Shown here: one piece after another, positions 9,960-14,540 of the stretch
Layout of the letters: each line of letters begins with the position of its first letter
Numbering within the stretch: the stretch's first letter is position 1
Assembly: GCA_023254985.1 (NCBI GenBank)
Contig: JALRJT010000015.1
Location: 1-28,155 of the forward strand
DNA from: Ilumatobacteraceae bacterium
Lineage (GTDB): Bacteria; Actinomycetota; Acidimicrobiia; Acidimicrobiales; Ilumatobacteraceae
Reading direction: 5' to 3'
DNA: 28,155 bases
Notes under the pieces: generated by a model
What the model was told of the DNA's origin: nothing
Databases searched by the model: none
What the model saw: only the letters and a program-made list of their open reading frames with translations
Program-made: the position numbers and the translations under genes

Positions 9960-10820
9960 GTGCCAAGCCCACTCGAAGATCTCGTCACACTTCTCGACTT
10001 GGAAGCAATCGAGGTCAACATCTTTCGTGGTCAATCGCCTGACGAGAATCGCCAGCGTGTGTTCGGCGGACAAGTAGCTGGTCAAGCACTCGTCGCAGCA
10101 ACTCGCACCATTGATGAACCCGACCGGATGGTGCACTCGTTGCACGCTTACTTCCTGCGCTCGGGCGACCCCGGCGTGCCGATCCTGTACGAAGTCGACC
10201 GACTTCGCGACGGTAAGAGTTTCTCTACTCGTCGAGTGGTAGCGATCCAGCACGGAAAGCCGATCTTCAATCTGCAGGCAAGTTTCCAGAAGATCGAGGC
10301 CGGTCTCGAATATCACATCACGATGGACCCGACGACTCCAACACCAGAGACGCTCCCTGATTTCAAAACGCGCATGGAGCCGTACAAGGAGCTCCTTGGC
10401 GACTGGTACGACAGACCTCGACCGATCGACCAGCGGTACGTCGACGGAGATCCGTTTTCACGAAAGGGAAATCCCCGTCCAGGTCAGCGCGTATGGATTC
10501 GTGCCGACGGCACTCTCCCCGACGATCCTGTGTTGCACTCCTGCATCCTCACCTATGCGAGCGACATGACCCTTCTCGACACCGCCCTCATGCCACACGG
10601 AATCGGGTGGTCCGACGGATCGGTGCAGATGGCAAGCCTCGACCATGCGATGTGGTTCCATCGGCCGTTCCGTGCGGACCAATGGATGCTGTATCAGCAG
10701 ACCTCGATCTCGACGTCCAACGCACGAGGTCTTGCCGAGGGGCACATCTTCACTCAGGACGGCCTTCTGGCAGTGACCGTCGTCCAGGAGGGACTCACCA
10801 GACTCGTTGCAAAGTCCTGA
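9960..10820 (+). CDS. tesB: Acyl-CoA thioesterase II
   Basis: RVFGGQVAGQAL, HSLHAYFLR, RDGKSFSTRRV, LTYASDMTLL, ASLDHAMWFHRPFRAD.W.LY and VQEGL. Confidence 0.95.
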   Translation: MPSPLEDLVTLLDLEAIEVNIFRGQSPDENRQRVFGGQVAGQALVAATRTIDEPDRMVHSLHAYFLRSGDPGVPILYEVDRLRDGKSFSTRRVVAIQHGKPIFNLQASFQKIEAGLEYHITMDPTTPTPETLPDFKTRMEPYKELLGDWYDRPRPIDQRYVDGDPFSRKGNPRPGQRVWIRADGTLPDDPVLHSCILTYASDMTLLDTALMPHGIGWSDGSVQMASLDHAMWFHRPFRADQWMLYQQTSISTSNARGLAEGHIFTQDGLLAVTVVQEGLTRLVAKS

Positions 10821-10831
10821 CCGACGGTCAG
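10817..10831. terminator. Short palindrome spanning the convergent tesB/mreB stops
   Basis: CTGACCG-A-CGGTCAG contains both TGA stops. Short stem, no U-tract. Confidence 0.25.
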
Positions 10832-11832
10832 CGACGCGAGTCCATGAACATCCCGCGCAGAGCGGTGAAGTTCTCGACGCAGTGACCCGCACCCAAGACC
10901 ACAGCCTCAAGTGGCTGGGGCGACATGTTCACCGGCACCTTGGTGTCGCGCTCGATTCGCTGGGCAAGCCCACGCAACATCGAGCCGCCACCGACCAGAT
11001 ACATGCCGCGAGTCAAGAAGTCCTGAGACAACTCTGGCGGCGCCACTGCGAGGCATCGAATGACCGAGTCGACCATCTGTGTGACGACGTCTTCGATCGC
11101 CTCACGAATTTCCTGGGGCGTCAAGATGACGGTCTTTGGCAGACCGCTCACGAGATCGCGACCTCGCACCTCTGCATCACGTTCACGCGGAGTTGGCATC
11201 GCACTGCCAATCGACTTCTTGATCTCCTCAGCAGTTCTCTCACCGATTGCCAATCCATGCTCGCGACGTACGTGTGCCTGAATCGCTGCATCGATATCGA
11301 ATGAACCGACACGCACTGCTTCAAGTGCGACGATTCCACCGAGGCTGATGACAGCTGTCTCGGTCGTCCCACCACCGATGTCAATCACCATATTTCCGAC
11401 CGGCTCGTTGATCGGAAGGTCGGCACCGATTGCTGCAGCCATCGGTTGCTCGAGCAGCTGCGCATCAGCTGCACCCGCGCGACGCGTCGCATCCGTCACC
11501 GCGCGACGTTCGACCTCGGTGATTGCCGACGGAACGCAAATCAGCACCTTGGGTCGTGAAAAACGAGAAACACCTGCACGCTGGAGGAGGAGGCGAATCA
11601 TCTTTTCGGTGATCTCGAAGTCAGTGATCGCCCCGCCACGCAGCGGCCTGACCGCGACGATGTAGCCAGGGGTCCTGCCGATCATCCCGGACGCCTCTTC
11701 TCCCGTGGCCAATACCTCGCCCGTACGCCTATTGACCGCGATCACCGACGGCTCGTTGATCACGATCCCCTTGCCTTGCATGTACACGAGGGTGTTGGCG
11801 GTCCCGAGGTCGATCGCGAGGTCACGTGCCAT
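10828..11832 (-). CDS. mreB: MreB-family actin-like ATPase, not linked to mreC/mreD
   Basis: IDLGTANT, NEPSV, GRTPG, TEVERRAV, EQPMAAAIGA, DIGGGTTE and GGGSMLRGL. Confidence 0.93.
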   Translation of the reverse strand: MARDLAIDLGTANTLVYMQGKGIVINEPSVIAVNRRTGEVLATGEEASGMIGRTPGYIVAVRPLRGGAITDFEITEKMIRLLLQRAGVSRFSRPKVLICVPSAITEVERRAVTDATRRAGAADAQLLEQPMAAAIGADLPINEPVGNMVIDIGGGTTETAVISLGGIVALEAVRVGSFDIDAAIQAHVRREHGLAIGERTAEEIKKSIGSAMPTPRERDAEVRGRDLVSGLPKTVILTPQEIREAIEDVVTQMVDSVIRCLAVAPPELSQDFLTRGMYLVGGGSMLRGLAQRIERDTKVPVNMSPQPLEAVVLGAGHCVENFTALRGMFMDSRR

Positions 11833-11834
11833 GG

Positions 11835-12053
11835 TTAATCACGCCCCTGACGCTCTCGTGACTCACGCAGTTGCTGGCGCAGGTGTGCCCGCGAGTCATC
11901 GGATAGTGCGTCGAGGTGTCGATGGAACGCGTCCATTCCGTTCGTCCTCGTCGGCGGTGGCGCATCTTGATAAACGAGATATGCAAGCACTAGTGCTGAC
12001 ACGACGGAGATGAGAGCAAAAAAAATCGTGACGGCACCGAATGCGAACATCAT
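11835..12053 (-). CDS. Small single-pass membrane protein of unknown function (72 aa)
   Basis: ATGA overlap with the moaE stop; ends 2 nt before the mreB ATG. Hydrophobic N-terminal ~27 aa followed by a charged helix (GMDAFHRHLDALSDDSR). Confidence 0.7.
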   Translation of the reverse strand: MMFAFGAVTIFFALISVVSALVLAYLVYQDAPPPTRTNGMDAFHRHLDALSDDSRAHLRQQLRESRERQGRD

Positions 12054-12544
12054 GAGTGGCTCTCGTTGTTCAAATTCGTGACATCAGTGATGTGTTGTGC
12101 ACCATGTGCCCAGTCAGATCCTTCGCCCCACTTCTCACGTTTCCAAATTGGAACCGTCGCCTTCAGCGCATCGATTCCGAAGCGAGCCGCTTCGAATGCC
12201 TCTGGCCGATGTGGTGCAGACACGACGACGAGGACGGACGATTCGCCGAGCTTGAGTTCACCCACGCGATGCACGAGTGCAATCCGCCCCAAGTCAGACC
12301 AGGTGCGACGCATTTCGTTCGCGATCTCGAGACACTTCGGGACGACTTGTTCGTCGTATGCCTCGTATGTCAACGTCGTGACGTCAGATCGTCCTTCAGA
12401 ATGATCGCGAACTGTTCCAGAAAACACAACGACTGCGCCACAGCGCGGGAGGACCGACCAGTCGTAGAGTTCTCCAACCCTCAACTCATCACTCGTCAAC
12501 TCAATCAGCGTCTCTCCGTTGTCGAAGAAGCGTCGGCTGGTCAC
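12050..12544 (-). CDS. moaE: Molybdopterin synthase catalytic subunit
   Basis: GAVVVFSGTVRDH, LTYEAY, HRVGEL, SAPHRPEAF and LKATVPIWKRE. Start set at GTG 12544, 6 nt below TACGCT. Confidence 0.92.
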   Translation of the reverse strand: MTSRRFFDNGETLIELTSDELRVGELYDWSVLPRCGAVVVFSGTVRDHSEGRSDVTTLTYEAYDEQVVPKCLEIANEMRRTWSDLGRIALVHRVGELKLGESSVLVVVSAPHRPEAFEAARFGIDALKATVPIWKREKWGEGSDWAHGAQHITDVTNLNNESHS

Positions 12545-12550
12545 ACGCAA

Positions 12551-12600
12551 AGCGTACCTGAGTATCGCGACGACACTTCGCCGTGGCACTTGACTAGCCT
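12551..12600. promoter_or_regulatory. Back-to-back leaderless promoters: TACGCT (minus, 12551-12556) and TAGCCT (plus, 12595-12600)
   Basis: Each TANNNT sits 6-7 nt before a GTG that opens the homologous part of its ORF. Confidence 0.55.
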
Positions 12601-12607
12601 CTCGCAC

Positions 12608-13387
12608 GTGTCGCCCGATGATGACGAACTCGGTGAACATTTCTTCAATGCACCCCTTCCGCCGTACGAGCGCGCCTGGGTTCATCCGAGTGAGCGTGCA
12701 CAAGGCGCCGAACTTCAAGATCCGTCGTGGTTCGACCGATCTTCCGGTCGAACGCTCGCCTTATTCAGCATTCTCACCGGACTGACTACCTCACTTGTCT
12801 TGCTGGTAGTCGCGCTGCCTGGATCTGGAAACAGCCCAGCACCTGACGCGATTCCAGTCACCTCAGAAGAGCGCCAGTCGCCCGTGAATGTCGACCCAAC
12901 AACAGTTCCGATCGCAGCAGCCCTAACCGAATCGGGGCTCCTGATCTCCGTGCTCAACGGCGCCACAGTCGGCCAGACAGTGCACGTTGCCACTCCTGAG
13001 GCAGCCGAATTCGACGCAGTCGTGATTGACGTCGAGCCGACTCTCGGAGTCTCGATGCTGAAGGTCATCGACCCCGTCTACGCAAAGAGTCGACTGGCGG
13101 TGACACCGGTCTCCGATGACGAGATACAGCCAGGAGCCCCAGTATGGGTCGCAACTGCAGCGTTTGGCATCGAACTCAGTCACATCAGTTCATCTACCCC
13201 GGGAACAAGCGGGACGCACATCCCCCTCGAACCATTCTCTAGTTCTCACCACGGTGGAACCGTGTTCACTAGCGACGGCTCGTTGATCGGGTGGTGTGTC
13301 GAACGCGACGGAAGGCATTGGTTGCTCTCGGCAAACGTTGCGCGGTCCGCGGTCCTTAGGCTGGAATCCGATGTCGTTCAACCCTGA
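12608..13387 (+). CDS. Membrane-anchored trypsin/HtrA-like domain protein lacking the catalytic triad
   Basis: GTG 12608. PLPPYERAWVHPSE N-terminus and one TM helix (TLALFSILTGLTTSLVLLVVAL). Then the HtrA-like pattern ESGLLIS..V.V....EFDAVVIDVEP..VSMLKV ... PGAPVWV ... HGGTVFTSDGSLIGW. No PDZ domain. Confidence 0.65.
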   Translation: MSPDDDELGEHFFNAPLPPYERAWVHPSERAQGAELQDPSWFDRSSGRTLALFSILTGLTTSLVLLVVALPGSGNSPAPDAIPVTSEERQSPVNVDPTTVPIAAALTESGLLISVLNGATVGQTVHVATPEAAEFDAVVIDVEPTLGVSMLKVIDPVYAKSRLAVTPVSDDEIQPGAPVWVATAAFGIELSHISSSTPGTSGTHIPLEPFSSSHHGGTVFTSDGSLIGWCVERDGRHWLLSANVARSAVLRLESDVVQP

Positions 13388-14540
13388 CGAGTCACCGTTC
13401 CCCGGAATGCCCTTCTTTGGCGATCTCGCCAAACAGTTGTCGAGCCAGGGTCCGTTGCAGTGGGATGTCGCTCGTCAAGTTGCCCTCATGACTTCCACGG
13501 AAGGGTCGAACAACGAGTCGAACGTTGACCCAGCCAGCCGGGTCGCCTTCGAACGCCTCCTTCCGATCGCCGACCAACGGGTGCGTGATTTCACAGGCCT
13601 TGCAACTGCACCACTCGGAGCACCGCCCAAGGTTGAGGTCGTGAATCGCTCGATGTGGACGCACCACACGCTCGCCGCATATCGCCCAATGTTCACGGAA
13701 CTCGCACAGTCACTTACCTCGTCGTCCGTCGAATCCACTGACGCCGATCCAATGGCCCAAATGATGTCGTCGATCAACAAGATGATGGGCCCCGCGATGA
13801 TGGGCATGTCCGTCGGCACGATGATCGGGCAACTCGCCCTCCGTTCGTTCGGCCAATACGACCTTCCCCTACCCCGTGAGTCACAGAATCAAGTTCTCAT
13901 CGTCGCACCAAATGTCGAGCGCTTCGCAAGCGACTGGAGCATCACGCCGGACGACATGCGCATGTGGGTACTCATCAGCGAACTCACGTCACACGCGGTT
14001 CTCACCATTCCACACGTCCGCGACACCATTTCTGCTGCCGTTCGTCACTACATTGCCGGATTCTCACCGAACCCGAACGCGTTGATGGAACGCCTCACGA
14101 ACATGGATCTCGGCGACAGTGATCCGATGGCGATGATGAACAAGTTCTTCACCGATCCCTCCATCATCCTCGGAGCAGTTCGCTCACCGATGCAGGAGAA
14201 CCTCGCACCATCCCTCGATGCGATGGTCGCAGCAATCATCGGCTATGTCGATCATGCAGTTGATGGAATCTCTGCGACAGTTCTCGGTGCTGGTACGCAG
14301 ATCGCCGAAGCCGTCCGACGCCGACGAGTGGAGGCCTCGCCAAGCGACTCCTTCGTCGAACAGCTCCTCGGTCTTCACCTCACGCAGGGACAAGTAGAAC
14401 GCGGAACCGCCTTCGTGGAGGGTGTCGTAGAACGAGCTGGGAGCGAAGGTCTCGGCCAACTCTTTGTGCGCTCTGGCAACCTACCGACGCCAAACGAGCT
14501 TGACGCCCCCGGGCTGTGGCTCGCCCGCATCGCCCTCTAA
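13371..14540 (+). CDS. DUF2342 / zincin-like 'zinc-dependent metalloprotease' family protein (metal motif degenerate)
   Basis: ATG 13371 overlaps the upstream gene. W..ARQVA, VVNRSMW, FGQYDLPL, IVAPNVERFA.DW, MWVLISELTSH and VERG.AFV.GVVERAG...LPTPNELDAPGLWLARI. Confidence 0.8.
   Translation: MSFNPDESPFPGMPFFGDLAKQLSSQGPLQWDVARQVALMTSTEGSNNESNVDPASRVAFERLLPIADQRVRDFTGLATAPLGAPPKVEVVNRSMWTHHTLAAYRPMFTELAQSLTSSSVESTDADPMAQMMSSINKMMGPAMMGMSVGTMIGQLALRSFGQYDLPLPRESQNQVLIVAPNVERFASDWSITPDDMRMWVLISELTSHAVLTIPHVRDTISAAVRHYIAGFSPNPNALMERLTNMDLGDSDPMAMMNKFFTDPSIILGAVRSPMQENLAPSLDAMVAAIIGYVDHAVDGISATVLGAGTQIAEAVRRRRVEASPSDSFVEQLLGLHLTQGQVERGTAFVEGVVERAGSEGLGQLFVRSGNLPTPNELDAPGLWLARIAL

What the first reader, a model, noticed from the sequence alone, without database searches (positions are those of the whole stretch)
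10828..11832. Orphan MreB paralogue with an actin-like Gln at the catalytic glutamate
Seen: the universal MreB motif IEEPMAAAIG reads LEQPMAAAIG (CAA at 11448-11446), other nucleotide-binding motifs are intact, and no mreC/mreD/pbp2/rodA follows (the gene converges on tesB). Known: the Glu before Pro (E. coli MreB E143) positions the hydrolytic water, and the equivalent residue in eukaryotic actin is Gln137. Inference: a second bacterial actin with altered, possibly polymerisation-gated or slow ATPase and a role outside the Rod complex. This is the best candidate here for an undescribed cytoskeletal system.
Basis: partly seen in the sequence, partly recalled or inferred. Interest (0 to 1): 0.75.

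Follow-up and report, generated by a model that had tools for sequence, protein, structure and literature searches.

The report
Second MreB with actin-like catalytic glutamine
This freshwater actinobacterium has a normal MreB cell-shape operon plus a second, very conserved MreB whose catalytic glutamate is fixed as glutamine, as in eukaryotic actin, and whose gene follows a tiny membrane protein resembling the front end of a known cell-division anchor, so it is a real, apparently undescribed variant of a known bacterial cytoskeletal protein.

Summary
Window 10828-11832(-) encodes an intact 334-aa MreB reading LLEQPMAAAIG. Q129 (CAA 11448-11446) aligns with E. coli MreB E143, and the other nucleotide motifs are intact. 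Contigs from three independent studies reproduce the sequence.

It is a true second copy. Another contig of this genome carries folC-ndk-mreB(IEEP)-mreC-mreD, and a closed genome of the same genus continues with pbp2-rodA.

The gene belongs to a strongly supported paralogue clade ("MreB2") found beside canonical mreB in most Acidimicrobiales and several other Actinomycetota lineages. Every Acidimicrobiia member has Gln (137 distinct proteins, both Gln codons). Glu was lost at least three more times in MreB2 and never in canonical copies.

New here: a small single-pass membrane protein sits immediately upstream of mreB2 in 172 of 208 loci. Its transmembrane helix plus SVxxFxRxLxAL motif matches the N-terminus of SepX/GlpR-like divisome membrane proteins (hhalign 93.7%).

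The proposed mechanism is inferred, not shown: a slowly hydrolysing, membrane-tethered filament. A role outside the Rod complex is not demonstrated.

This is a new variant of a known kind, of moderate interest.

The parts
10828..11832 (-). mreB2: a 334-aa MreB-family actin homologue, the second MreB copy of this genome
   Evidence: Pfam PF06723 424 bits; NCBIfam NF010539 433.6 bits and TIGR00904 408.9 bits, all over cut-off. Best solved relative is Geobacillus MreB 7zpt, E 5e-101. It falls in a paralogue clade with 100/99 support.
11446..11448 (-). CAA codon for Gln129, at the position of the catalytic Glu (E. coli E143, C. crescentus E140, actin Q137)
   Evidence: Reproduced in contigs of three independent studies. 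Gln in 137 of 137 distinct Acidimicrobiia orthologues, using both CAG and CAA.
11359..11382 (-). Phosphate-2 motif DIGGGTTE (residues 151-158), holding the retained Thr-X-Glu pair of the hydrolysis motif
   Evidence: Translation. D151, G153-155 and E158 are invariant in the MreB2 alignment. All Gln-type proteins keep G-G-G-T-x-E.
11791..11811 (-). Phosphate-1 motif DLGTANT (residues 8-14), preceded by only 7 residues (MARDLAI), so there is no N-terminal amphipathic helix
   Evidence: The E. coli alignment starts at its residue 9.
10984..10992 (-). Adenosine-binding GGG (residues 281-283) within YLVGGGSML
11835..12053 (-). Small single-pass membrane protein (72 aa): N-terminal TM helix, then a conserved juxtamembrane motif (GMDAFHRHLDAL here; family consensus SVxxFxRxLxAL; a basic stretch follows the helix in most family members). 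Its stop lies 2 nt from the mreB2 ATG.
   Evidence: A homologue lies just upstream of mreB2 in 172 of 208 MreB2 loci and 0 of 42 other mreB loci. In whole-genome searches the best hit sits next to mreB2 wherever I compared the two positions. No Pfam or NCBIfam family matches. hhalign gives 93.7% probability, E 1.9e-7, to the N-terminus of SepX/GlpR-like proteins.
12050..12560 (-). moaE (MPT synthase large subunit). It overlaps the small ORF by 4 nt. Its true start is uncertain, somewhere around 12544-12640.
   Evidence: PF02391 118 bits. It is the only MoaE match in this genome and in four closed or near-complete relatives. moaE sits upstream of the small-ORF-mreB2 pair in Acidimicrobiia and in some other lineages.
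9960..10820 (+). Convergent TesB-like acyl-CoA thioesterase. It marks the end of the mreB2 transcription unit and is not part of the module.
   Evidence: PF02551 156 bits. Its distance from mreB2 varies from 1.8 to 7 kb among relatives.
13296..14540 (+). Divergently oriented Zincin_2 (PF10103) gene, the one neighbour besides mreB2 that is conserved in all 18 diverse MreB2 loci compared
   Evidence: PF10103 212 bits. Neighbour clustering found it in 18 of 18 loci.

Best explanation
Shown. The gene encodes the second MreB of an uncultured freshwater acIV/Ilumatobacteraceae actinobacterium (class Acidimicrobiia). It belongs to a distinct, strongly conserved paralogue clade, called MreB2 here. That clade coexists with the canonical ndk-mreB-mreC-mreD-pbp2-rodA operon in most Acidimicrobiales families and in several other lineages of Actinomycetota. 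In the whole Acidimicrobiia branch the water-positioning Glu is fixed as Gln, while the Thr-X-Glu pair and the phosphate and adenosine motifs are kept. The same Glu-to-Gln change arose at least twice more in the clade, and Glu-to-Gly once; it never occurs in the canonical copies. mreB2 is tightly coupled to a small N-out/C-in single-pass membrane protein whose TM helix and juxtamembrane helix are homologous to the first module of SepX/GlpR-type divisome membrane receptors.

Inferred. MreB2 still binds ATP and polymerises. With Gln instead of Glu it positions the attacking water as actin does but hydrolyses or releases phosphate more slowly, giving longer-lived filaments. The small protein serves as its membrane receptor or tether. 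The pair acts as an accessory envelope scaffold, either alongside or co-assembled with the canonical MreB.
For: Second copy: one search finds two MreB genes. Contig C134 carries folC-ndk-mreB(IIEEPMAAAIG)-mreC-mreD, and closed genome G102 of the same genus has folC-ndk-mreB-mreC-mreD-pbp2-rodA.

Clade: the careful IQ-TREE tree has a 59-row MreB2 clade at 100/99 support against 18 canonical and other rows. Its Acidimicrobiia sub-clade (25 rows, 100/99) is entirely Gln. The tree needs at least 4 changes at this residue, all inside MreB2.

Distribution: MreB2 is present in 24 of 24 genus genomes and 15 of 16 other families of the order.

Selection for Gln: 137 of 137 distinct proteins have Gln, 100 CAG and 37 CAA. 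Position 129 is the only one that changed convergently in all three Gln lineages.

Constraint: MreB2 is more conserved than the canonical copy in the same genomes (95, 83, 73 and 71% identity against 88, 67, 63 and 64%).

Catalytic role of the residue: E140, T167 and E169 form the hydrolysis motif, E140 corresponds to actin Q137, and loss of the motif in Spiroplasma MreB3 gives slow phosphate release (PMC9597168). ScMreB5 E134A is ATPase-deficient yet still forms filaments, for which no disassembly events were observed (PMC9195046).

Partner: adjacency statistics and the hhalign match to SepX/GlpR-like proteins. GlpR and SepX are described as membrane receptors or anchors for cytoskeleton-associated proteins (PMC10522489; PMC8748795).

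RodZ: its HTH (PF13413) was not found above cut-off in four closed or near-complete (99-100%) Acidimicrobiia genomes.
Against: No biochemistry exists for any member, so slow hydrolysis, polymerisation and membrane tethering are all inference. Actin hydrolyses ATP well with Gln at this position, so ATPase activity may be little changed. The small ORF is missing or unrecognisable in 36 of 208 MreB2 loci, including Gln-type ones, so it cannot be obligatory. Its motif also occurs in the longer SepX/GlpR-like protein in genomes that lack MreB2 (family f39), so the motif need not bind MreB2. The complex prediction gave no verdict. The counted loci are phylogenetically related and are not independent samples.
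Confidence: 0.55

Rival explanations
1. An ordinary isoform. MreB2 is an Mbl/MreBH-like accessory MreB that co-polymerises with the canonical MreB and works inside the Rod complex. Gln129 is a conservative, functionally minor change that leaves ATPase activity roughly normal.
For: All other motifs are intact and the protein is 49% identical to E. coli MreB over its full length. Actin uses Gln at this position and is an active ATPase (PMC9597168). From my own knowledge, orphan MreB paralogues that act with the Rod system are known in B. subtilis. Most non-Acidimicrobiia MreB2 proteins keep Glu.
Against: Canonical copies never vary at this residue, whereas MreB2 lost the Glu at least four times. 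In Acidimicrobiia the Gln never reverts despite deep divergence and a one-base path back to Glu. One lineage (L143) lost both the Glu and the Thr (EGP plus GGGVTE), which points to selection on hydrolysis itself. MreB2 carries its own diagnostic residues, such as G-x-F-D-x-D where canonical copies have G-D-x-x-D-E.
Confidence: 0.28
2. A non-hydrolysing regulator. MreB2(Q) binds ATP but is effectively ATPase-dead. It acts as a static scaffold, or as a cap or modulator of canonical MreB filaments, rather than as a dynamic polymer.
For: Mutating this Glu in ScMreB5 (E134A) strongly reduces ATPase activity; the mutant still forms filaments, and no disassembly events were seen for them (PMC9195046). 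Spiroplasma MreB3 is a natural low-ATPase paralogue. The L143 lineage lost both catalytic residues.
Against: Gln retains hydrogen-bonding capacity and is the native residue in actin. Thr-X-Glu is strictly kept in all Gln-type proteins, which suggests that some hydrolysis still matters.
Confidence: 0.12
3. An artefact or a decaying gene: the CAA is a sequencing or assembly error, or the copy is a degenerating duplicate.
For: The genome is a 55%-complete metagenome-assembled genome in 213 contigs.
Against: The sequence is identical in contigs of three independent studies. The Gln is conserved across an entire class-level clade with synonymous codon variation. The frame is intact, and the protein is more conserved than the canonical MreB.
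Confidence: 0.01

Closest known systems
Canonical MreB (E. coli MreB, C. crescentus MreB PDB 4CZJ, Geobacillus MreB PDB 7ZPT)
   Same: Full-length actin fold, 49% identity to E. coli MreB. The phosphate-1, phosphate-2 (with Thr-X-Glu) and adenosine motifs are kept, as is V107, the equivalent of E. coli V121, which from my memory of the literature lies at the double-filament interface.
   Different: Gln replaces the catalytic Glu. It is not in an mreBCD operon. It has a very short N-terminus without an amphipathic helix. It carries clade-specific residues (A68, G87, A103, F178-D179, R189). Its gene is coupled to a small membrane protein.
Spiroplasma MreB3 (natural low-ATPase MreB paralogue; PMC9597168)
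   Same: A paralogue kept beside other MreBs, with the conserved hydrolysis motif E...T-X-[D/E] naturally disrupted.
   Different: MreB3 has Asp, Lys and Ser/Thr at all three positions, whereas here only the first residue is changed, to Gln. The lineage is unrelated (Mollicutes, wall-less, linked to swimming), and the change is independent.
Eukaryotic actin (Gln137)
   Same: The same residue type at the structurally equivalent water-positioning position (PMC9597168).
   Different: The proton-abstracting partner remains the MreB-type Thr-X-Glu, not actin's His161. The match to Pfam Actin is below threshold (20 bits against a cut-off of 27). The resemblance is a convergent single-site one.
B. 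subtilis Mbl/MreBH and Streptomyces Mbl (accessory MreB paralogues)
   Same: Extra MreB copies encoded away from mreCD.
   Different: The NCBIfam MreBH model scores 376.9 bits against a cut-off of 515. The second, divergent MreB-family copy in three Streptomyces-sized (7-9 Mb) genomes, which I take to be Mbl, is only about 35-36% identical and was too divergent to enter the tree; their canonical copies fall outside the MreB2 clade. From my memory, those paralogues keep Glu-Glu-Pro.
SepX (Streptomyces) and GlpR (Corynebacterium) divisome membrane receptors; this comparison is for the small upstream protein
   Same: An N-terminal TM helix followed by the SVxxFxRxLxxL juxtamembrane motif (hhalign 93.7%). 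Both are encoded directly after a molybdenum-cofactor gene: moaE here, moaC for the long form.
   Different: The small protein is only 50-150 aa and lacks TM2, TM3 and the two long disordered regions. It has no hit to the NCBIfam SepX_GlpR models. It is followed by mreB2 rather than lying near the repurposed MoeA gene glp, as glpR does.

Membership tests
MreB/Mbl family (PF06723, TIGR00904) | Full-length match to the family profile above the curated cut-off | tested here: met
   PF06723 424.2 bits (cut-off 27); NF010539 433.6 (293); TIGR00904 408.9 (365.75).
MreB/Mbl family (PF06723, TIGR00904) | Hydrolysis motif E...T-X-[D/E] (CcMreB E140, T167, E169), conserved in 95.8% of 4832 MreBs (PMC9597168) | tested here: not met
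   The first position is Gln129. The T-X-E part is present as T156-T157-E158.
MreB/Mbl family (PF06723, TIGR00904) | Phosphate-1 (DxGTxxT) and adenosine (GGG) nucleotide-binding motifs | tested here: met
   DLGTANT at residues 8-14 and VGGGS at 280-284, invariant in the clade alignment.
MreB/Mbl family (PF06723, TIGR00904) | Assembly into antiparallel double filaments on the membrane | not testable with these tools
   Only indirect evidence: very high conservation over the whole length (mean column identity 73% across distant, probably class-level, lineages).
Canonical Rod-complex MreB (the mreBCD operon copy) | Encoded with mreC, mreD, pbp2 and rodA | tested here: not met
   The window gene is flanked by moaE and the small ORF upstream and by a convergent thioesterase downstream. 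The operon copy lies on contig C134 and at G102:C1:1890013.
Spiroplasma MreB3-type low-ATPase MreB | Asp, Lys and Ser/Thr at the three motif positions | tested here: not met
   The residues here are Gln, Thr and Glu.
MreBH (NF010540) | Score above the curated cut-off | tested here: not met
   376.9 bits against a cut-off of 515.
Streptomyces Mbl | Close similarity to, or clustering with, the Streptomyces second MreB copy (Mbl) | tested here: not met
   The second copy in Streptomyces-sized genomes is 35-36% identical to the query and was too divergent to enter the tree. Their canonical copies fall outside the MreB2 clade.
SepX/GlpR divisome membrane protein (for the small ORF 11835-12053) | Three TM helices and two cytoplasmic disordered regions (PMC10522489, PMC8748795); match to NCBIfam SepX_GlpR models | tested here: not met
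   There is one TM helix and 72 aa, with no SepX_GlpR hit at E<=1. Only the N-terminal module is shared (hhalign 93.7%).
SepX/GlpR divisome membrane protein (for the long paralogue on contig C205:840-1355) | Three-TM architecture, Moco-gene neighbourhood, match to NCBIfam models | tested here: inconclusive
   The architecture fits, as does the moeA...moaC context. NCBIfam scores of 33-38 bits are far below the cut-offs of 110-160, though E-values reach 1.6e-9.

The most novel reading that the evidence does not exclude
MreB2 and its mini-SepX/GlpR-like membrane partner form a separate, membrane-anchored actin system of non-Actinomycetes lineages of Actinomycetota (presumed deep-branching). It would be distinct from the Rod complex and would link envelope growth to the divisome. 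Hydrolysis would have been tuned down repeatedly, by Glu-to-Gln or Glu-to-Gly, to make long-lived filaments.
Probability: 0.2. Interest if true: 0.8.

Novelty: new variant of a known kind. Interest (0 to 1): 0.56.

Why it matters
MreB is the model bacterial actin, and what its ATP hydrolysis is for remains unsettled. Nature has run the Glu-to-Gln experiment here at least three times in one paralogue clade and then held the result fixed across a whole class that includes very abundant freshwater bacteria (the acIV lineage). This gives a ready-made pair for testing how the catalytic carboxylate shapes filament dynamics: wild type against a Q129E revertant, with the canonical MreB of the same cell as a control. 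The coupled small membrane protein shares its first module with SepX/GlpR. That points to a possible general way in which actinobacteria dock cytoskeletal proteins to the membrane, in genomes where no RodZ was found. All databases I looked at currently label these proteins simply 'rod shape-determining protein MreB'.

Tried and rejected
1. Complex prediction of MreB2 with the cytoplasmic tail of the small protein scored 0.00, under the mark. It gives no verdict and is no evidence for or against binding.

2. Pfam, NCBIfam and the ESM Atlas returned no known family for the small protein.

3. I looked for compensatory or co-varying substitutions accompanying Glu-to-Gln. T280V looked specific to Acidimicrobiia, but it also occurs in Glu-type sisters and is absent from one Gln lineage. 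Only position 129 is convergent.

4. The consensus promoter and terminator scan of 10600-13400 found nothing.

5. Literature searches for 'MreB' with 'Acidimicrobiia' found nothing, and searches on actinobacterial MreB paralogues found no description of this clade. This absence is limited to the open-access library searched.

6. I tried to name the non-Acidimicrobiia lineages that hold MreB2. Their records are labelled only 'Actinomycetota bacterium', so they are cited by family codes (f26, f31, f33, f35, f57, f59, f68, f69).

7. The long + strand ORF at 12056-13387 gave weak antisense 'hits' opposite moaE. I treated its 5' part as a shadow ORF.

8. I considered whether the adjacent moaE is a repurposed paralogue, by analogy with Glp and MoeA. 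It is the only moaE in four closed or near-complete relatives, so it is probably the housekeeping enzyme.

9. RNA evidence is thin. One metatranscriptome contig matches 11169-11365 exactly. That is not proof of transcription or of co-transcription.

Full report
**Observation**

The ORF at window 10828-11832 on the minus strand is intact and encodes 334 aa. It is an unambiguous MreB-family protein. Pfam MreB_Mbl scores 424 bits, and NCBIfam NF010539 and TIGR00904 score 433.6 and 408.9 bits, all above their curated cut-offs. Its best solved relative is Geobacillus MreB (7zpt, E 5e-101).

The minus strand reads ctc-gag-caa-ccg-atg-gct. CAA therefore lies at 11448-11446 and encodes Gln129 in LLEQPMAAAIG. 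Alignment with E. coli K-12 MreB places Gln129 opposite E143, the Glu before Pro.

Takahashi et al. (PMC9597168) describe this residue (CcMreB E140) as the one that positions the attacking water. They equate it with actin Q137, and they report the motif E...T-X-[D/E] in 95.8% of 4832 MreBs. Here the Thr-X-Glu part (DIGGGTTE), phosphate-1 (DLGTANT) and the adenosine GGG are intact.

**Not an error**

Logan contigs from three unrelated studies (2017, 2021, 2025) cover 10700-11833 with no differences. Across all loci I fetched, 137 distinct Acidimicrobiia orthologues carry Gln at this site, 100 as CAG and 37 as CAA. The residue is therefore held by purifying selection.

**A genuine second copy**

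The assembly is a 55%-complete metagenome-assembled genome of 1.06 Mb. Record titles of its nearest relatives place it in the freshwater acIV/Ilumatobacteraceae group of Acidimicrobiia.

It has a second MreB on contig C134, within folC-ndk-mreB-mreC-mreD, reading IIEEPMAAAIG. In a closed genome of the same genus (G102) that operon continues with pbp2 and rodA. The window gene is instead flanked by moaE and a small ORF upstream, and by a convergent TesB-like thioesterase 7 nt downstream.

**The clade**

Orthologues of the window gene (67-99% identity) occur in 24 of 24 genus genomes and in 15 of 16 other families of the order. Each sits beside a canonical copy of about 50-56% identity. In a sample of 300 Actinomycetota genomes, further relatives at 57-65% identity occur in several other families, again next to a canonical copy.

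A careful IQ-TREE analysis of 77 non-redundant sequences separates a 59-row 'MreB2' clade (support 100/99) from the canonical and other copies (the quick tree agrees). A second, divergent MreB-family copy in Streptomyces-sized genomes (presumably Mbl) is only about 35% identical and is not in this clade.

The Acidimicrobiia branch of MreB2 (25 rows, 100/99) is entirely Gln, with one HQP variant. Elsewhere MreB2 is mostly Glu, but Gln arose again in two separate places (L141/L167 and L133), and one lineage has Gly together with loss of the catalytic Thr (L143: EGP, GGGVTE). The tree needs at least four changes at this residue, all in MreB2 and none among the canonical rows. No other position changed convergently with it.

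MreB2 is also more conserved than the canonical MreB of the same genomes. Identities are 95, 83, 73 and 71% for MreB2 against 88, 67, 63 and 64% for the canonical copy, at genus, family, order and class distance.

MreB2 is not universal. It was not found in six of seven sampled genomes of other orders of the class, nor in two sampled Acidimicrobiales families.

**The partner gene**

The 72-aa ORF at 11835-12053(-) ends 2 nt before the mreB2 start and overlaps moaE by 4 nt. It has an N-terminal TM helix, then the motif GMDAFHRHLDAL. In most family members a basic stretch follows the helix, which suggests the tail is cytoplasmic.

Equivalent ORFs lie -11 to +23 nt from mreB2 in MreB2 loci of many lineages. 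They share only the TM helix and SVxxFxRxLxAL, with an invariant Phe. A profile of the family hits an ORF just upstream of mreB2 in 172 of 208 MreB2 loci, and in 0 of 42 other mreB loci. In whole-genome searches of 301 genomes the top hit sits next to mreB2 wherever I compared the two positions. The ORF is absent or unrecognisable in some sub-clades. No Pfam, NCBIfam or Atlas family matches it.

The same profile also hits, more weakly, proteins of 170-240 aa with the same N-terminal module, a disordered linker and two further TM helices. These are encoded directly after moaC and near the genome's only moeA; in this genome the gene is at C205:840-1355. They give sub-threshold but consistent matches to the NCBIfam SepX/GlpR divisome models (E down to 1.6e-9). 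They also have the three-TM, two-loop architecture described for SepX and GlpR (PMC8748795; PMC10522489).

Profile-profile comparison of the small-protein family with these proteins gives 93.7% probability, E 1.9e-7, over the TM1-plus-motif region. The small protein is thus a 'mini' version of the first module of a SepX/GlpR-like membrane receptor. It is not a member of that family.

**Wider neighbourhood**

A divergent Zincin_2 gene is present in 18 of 18 diverse MreB2 loci. An NAD-epimerase-like gene and a PDZ-Lon_C protease gene are each present in 12 of 18 loci, a UPF0182 membrane-protein gene in 6 and moaE in 9. From memory, this resembles the mycobacterial Rv3193c-Rv3195 block. The moaE here is the only copy in four closed or near-complete relatives. 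RodZ's HTH domain was not found above cut-off in four closed or near-complete (99-100%) Acidimicrobiia genomes.

**Interpretation**

The following are shown:
- MreB2 is a conserved second MreB.
- It has a selected Gln at the catalytic Glu.
- Loss of that Glu recurs within the paralogue clade.
- It has a conserved, coupled small membrane protein related to the SepX/GlpR N-terminus.

The mechanism is inferred from published work. Mutation or natural loss of this Glu lowers ATPase activity and phosphate release while leaving filaments able to form; for the ScMreB5 E134A mutant no filament disassembly events were observed (PMC9195046; PMC9597168). On that basis MreB2(Q) probably forms longer-lived filaments, and the small protein is a plausible membrane tether.

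The inference has limits. Actin is an active ATPase with Gln at this position, so the size of the effect is unknown. A role outside the Rod complex is possible but not demonstrated; orphan MreB paralogues in Bacillus act with the Rod system (my own knowledge). The complex prediction gave no verdict.

**Novelty**

Natural MreBs lacking the hydrolysis motif are known (Spiroplasma MreB3, and about 4% of MreBs in PMC9597168). I found no description of this actinobacterial clade, its Gln signature, or its partner gene. All database names are the generic 'rod shape-determining protein MreB'. I class it as a new variant of a known kind.

**Unpublished genomes**

The samples included unpublished genomes: G041, G088, G128 and G160, and G041. 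They enter only the overall tallies of those two calls. No locus was fetched from them and no specific claim rests on them.

Noticed in passing
own genome contig C205:840-1355(-) (locus L268), with moaC at L268:1465-1935(-) and moeA at C205:3723-4205(-): A SepX/GlpR-like three-TM membrane protein lies directly downstream of moaC and near the only moeA. The same order is seen in relatives and in another family (L269-L271, L273). Acidimicrobiia therefore appear to have the actinobacterial Glp/GlpR-type locus. Both 'TM + SVxxFRRxL' proteins follow a molybdenum-cofactor gene, which I cannot explain.
   Followed up: partly
L255:1066-2505(+): In one Ilumatobacteraceae metagenome-assembled genome the small membrane protein is fused in frame to MreB2, with no stop between them. 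It is a single case and could be an assembly error.
   Followed up: partly
L143 (G108:C40) and its relatives L142 and L168: One MreB2 lineage has lost both the catalytic Glu (EGP) and the Thr (GGGVTE), while its sisters keep EEP and GGGTSE. It is probably a fully hydrolysis-deficient natural variant.
   Followed up: partly
L001:1380-2414 (own canonical mreB) compared with window 10828-11832: In this streamlined genus the canonical MreB sits on a long branch (0.8-1.0 substitutions per site) and is less conserved than MreB2 at every taxonomic distance.
   Followed up: partly
G102, G131, G145, G117 (closed or near-complete Acidimicrobiia genomes): There is no RodZ-type HTH_25 (PF13413) match above cut-off, although 11 of the 14 control genomes have one above cut-off.
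   Followed up: partly
L138:6051-6149(-), L162:1876-1944(+), L184:1301-1447(+): In three other actinobacterial families the canonical-type mreB is preceded by a different tiny hydrophobic ORF, ending ...KITIAAVIGMLVAFILVARK.
   Followed up: no
window 13296-14540(+), and L127:6483-7838 and L127:9974-10993 in relatives: Zincin_2 flanks MreB2 in all 18 diverse loci compared, a PDZ-Lon_C protease gene in 12 and a UPF0182 gene in 6, across distant lineages. From memory this recalls the mycobacterial Rv3193c-Rv3195 block. The PDZ-Lon gene is not near mreB2 in this genus.
   Followed up: partly
window 11805-11834: Logan contigs of all three DNA runs break here, and summed depth jumps three- to thirty-fold. 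This is the near-invariant DLGTANTLVY coding stretch shared by many organisms in the metagenomes, so it acts as an assembly-graph knot. It is not a feature of the genome.
   Followed up: no
window 11169-11365: A 197-nt contig from a metatranscriptomic run matches this part of mreB2 exactly. This is a weak hint of expression only.
   Followed up: no
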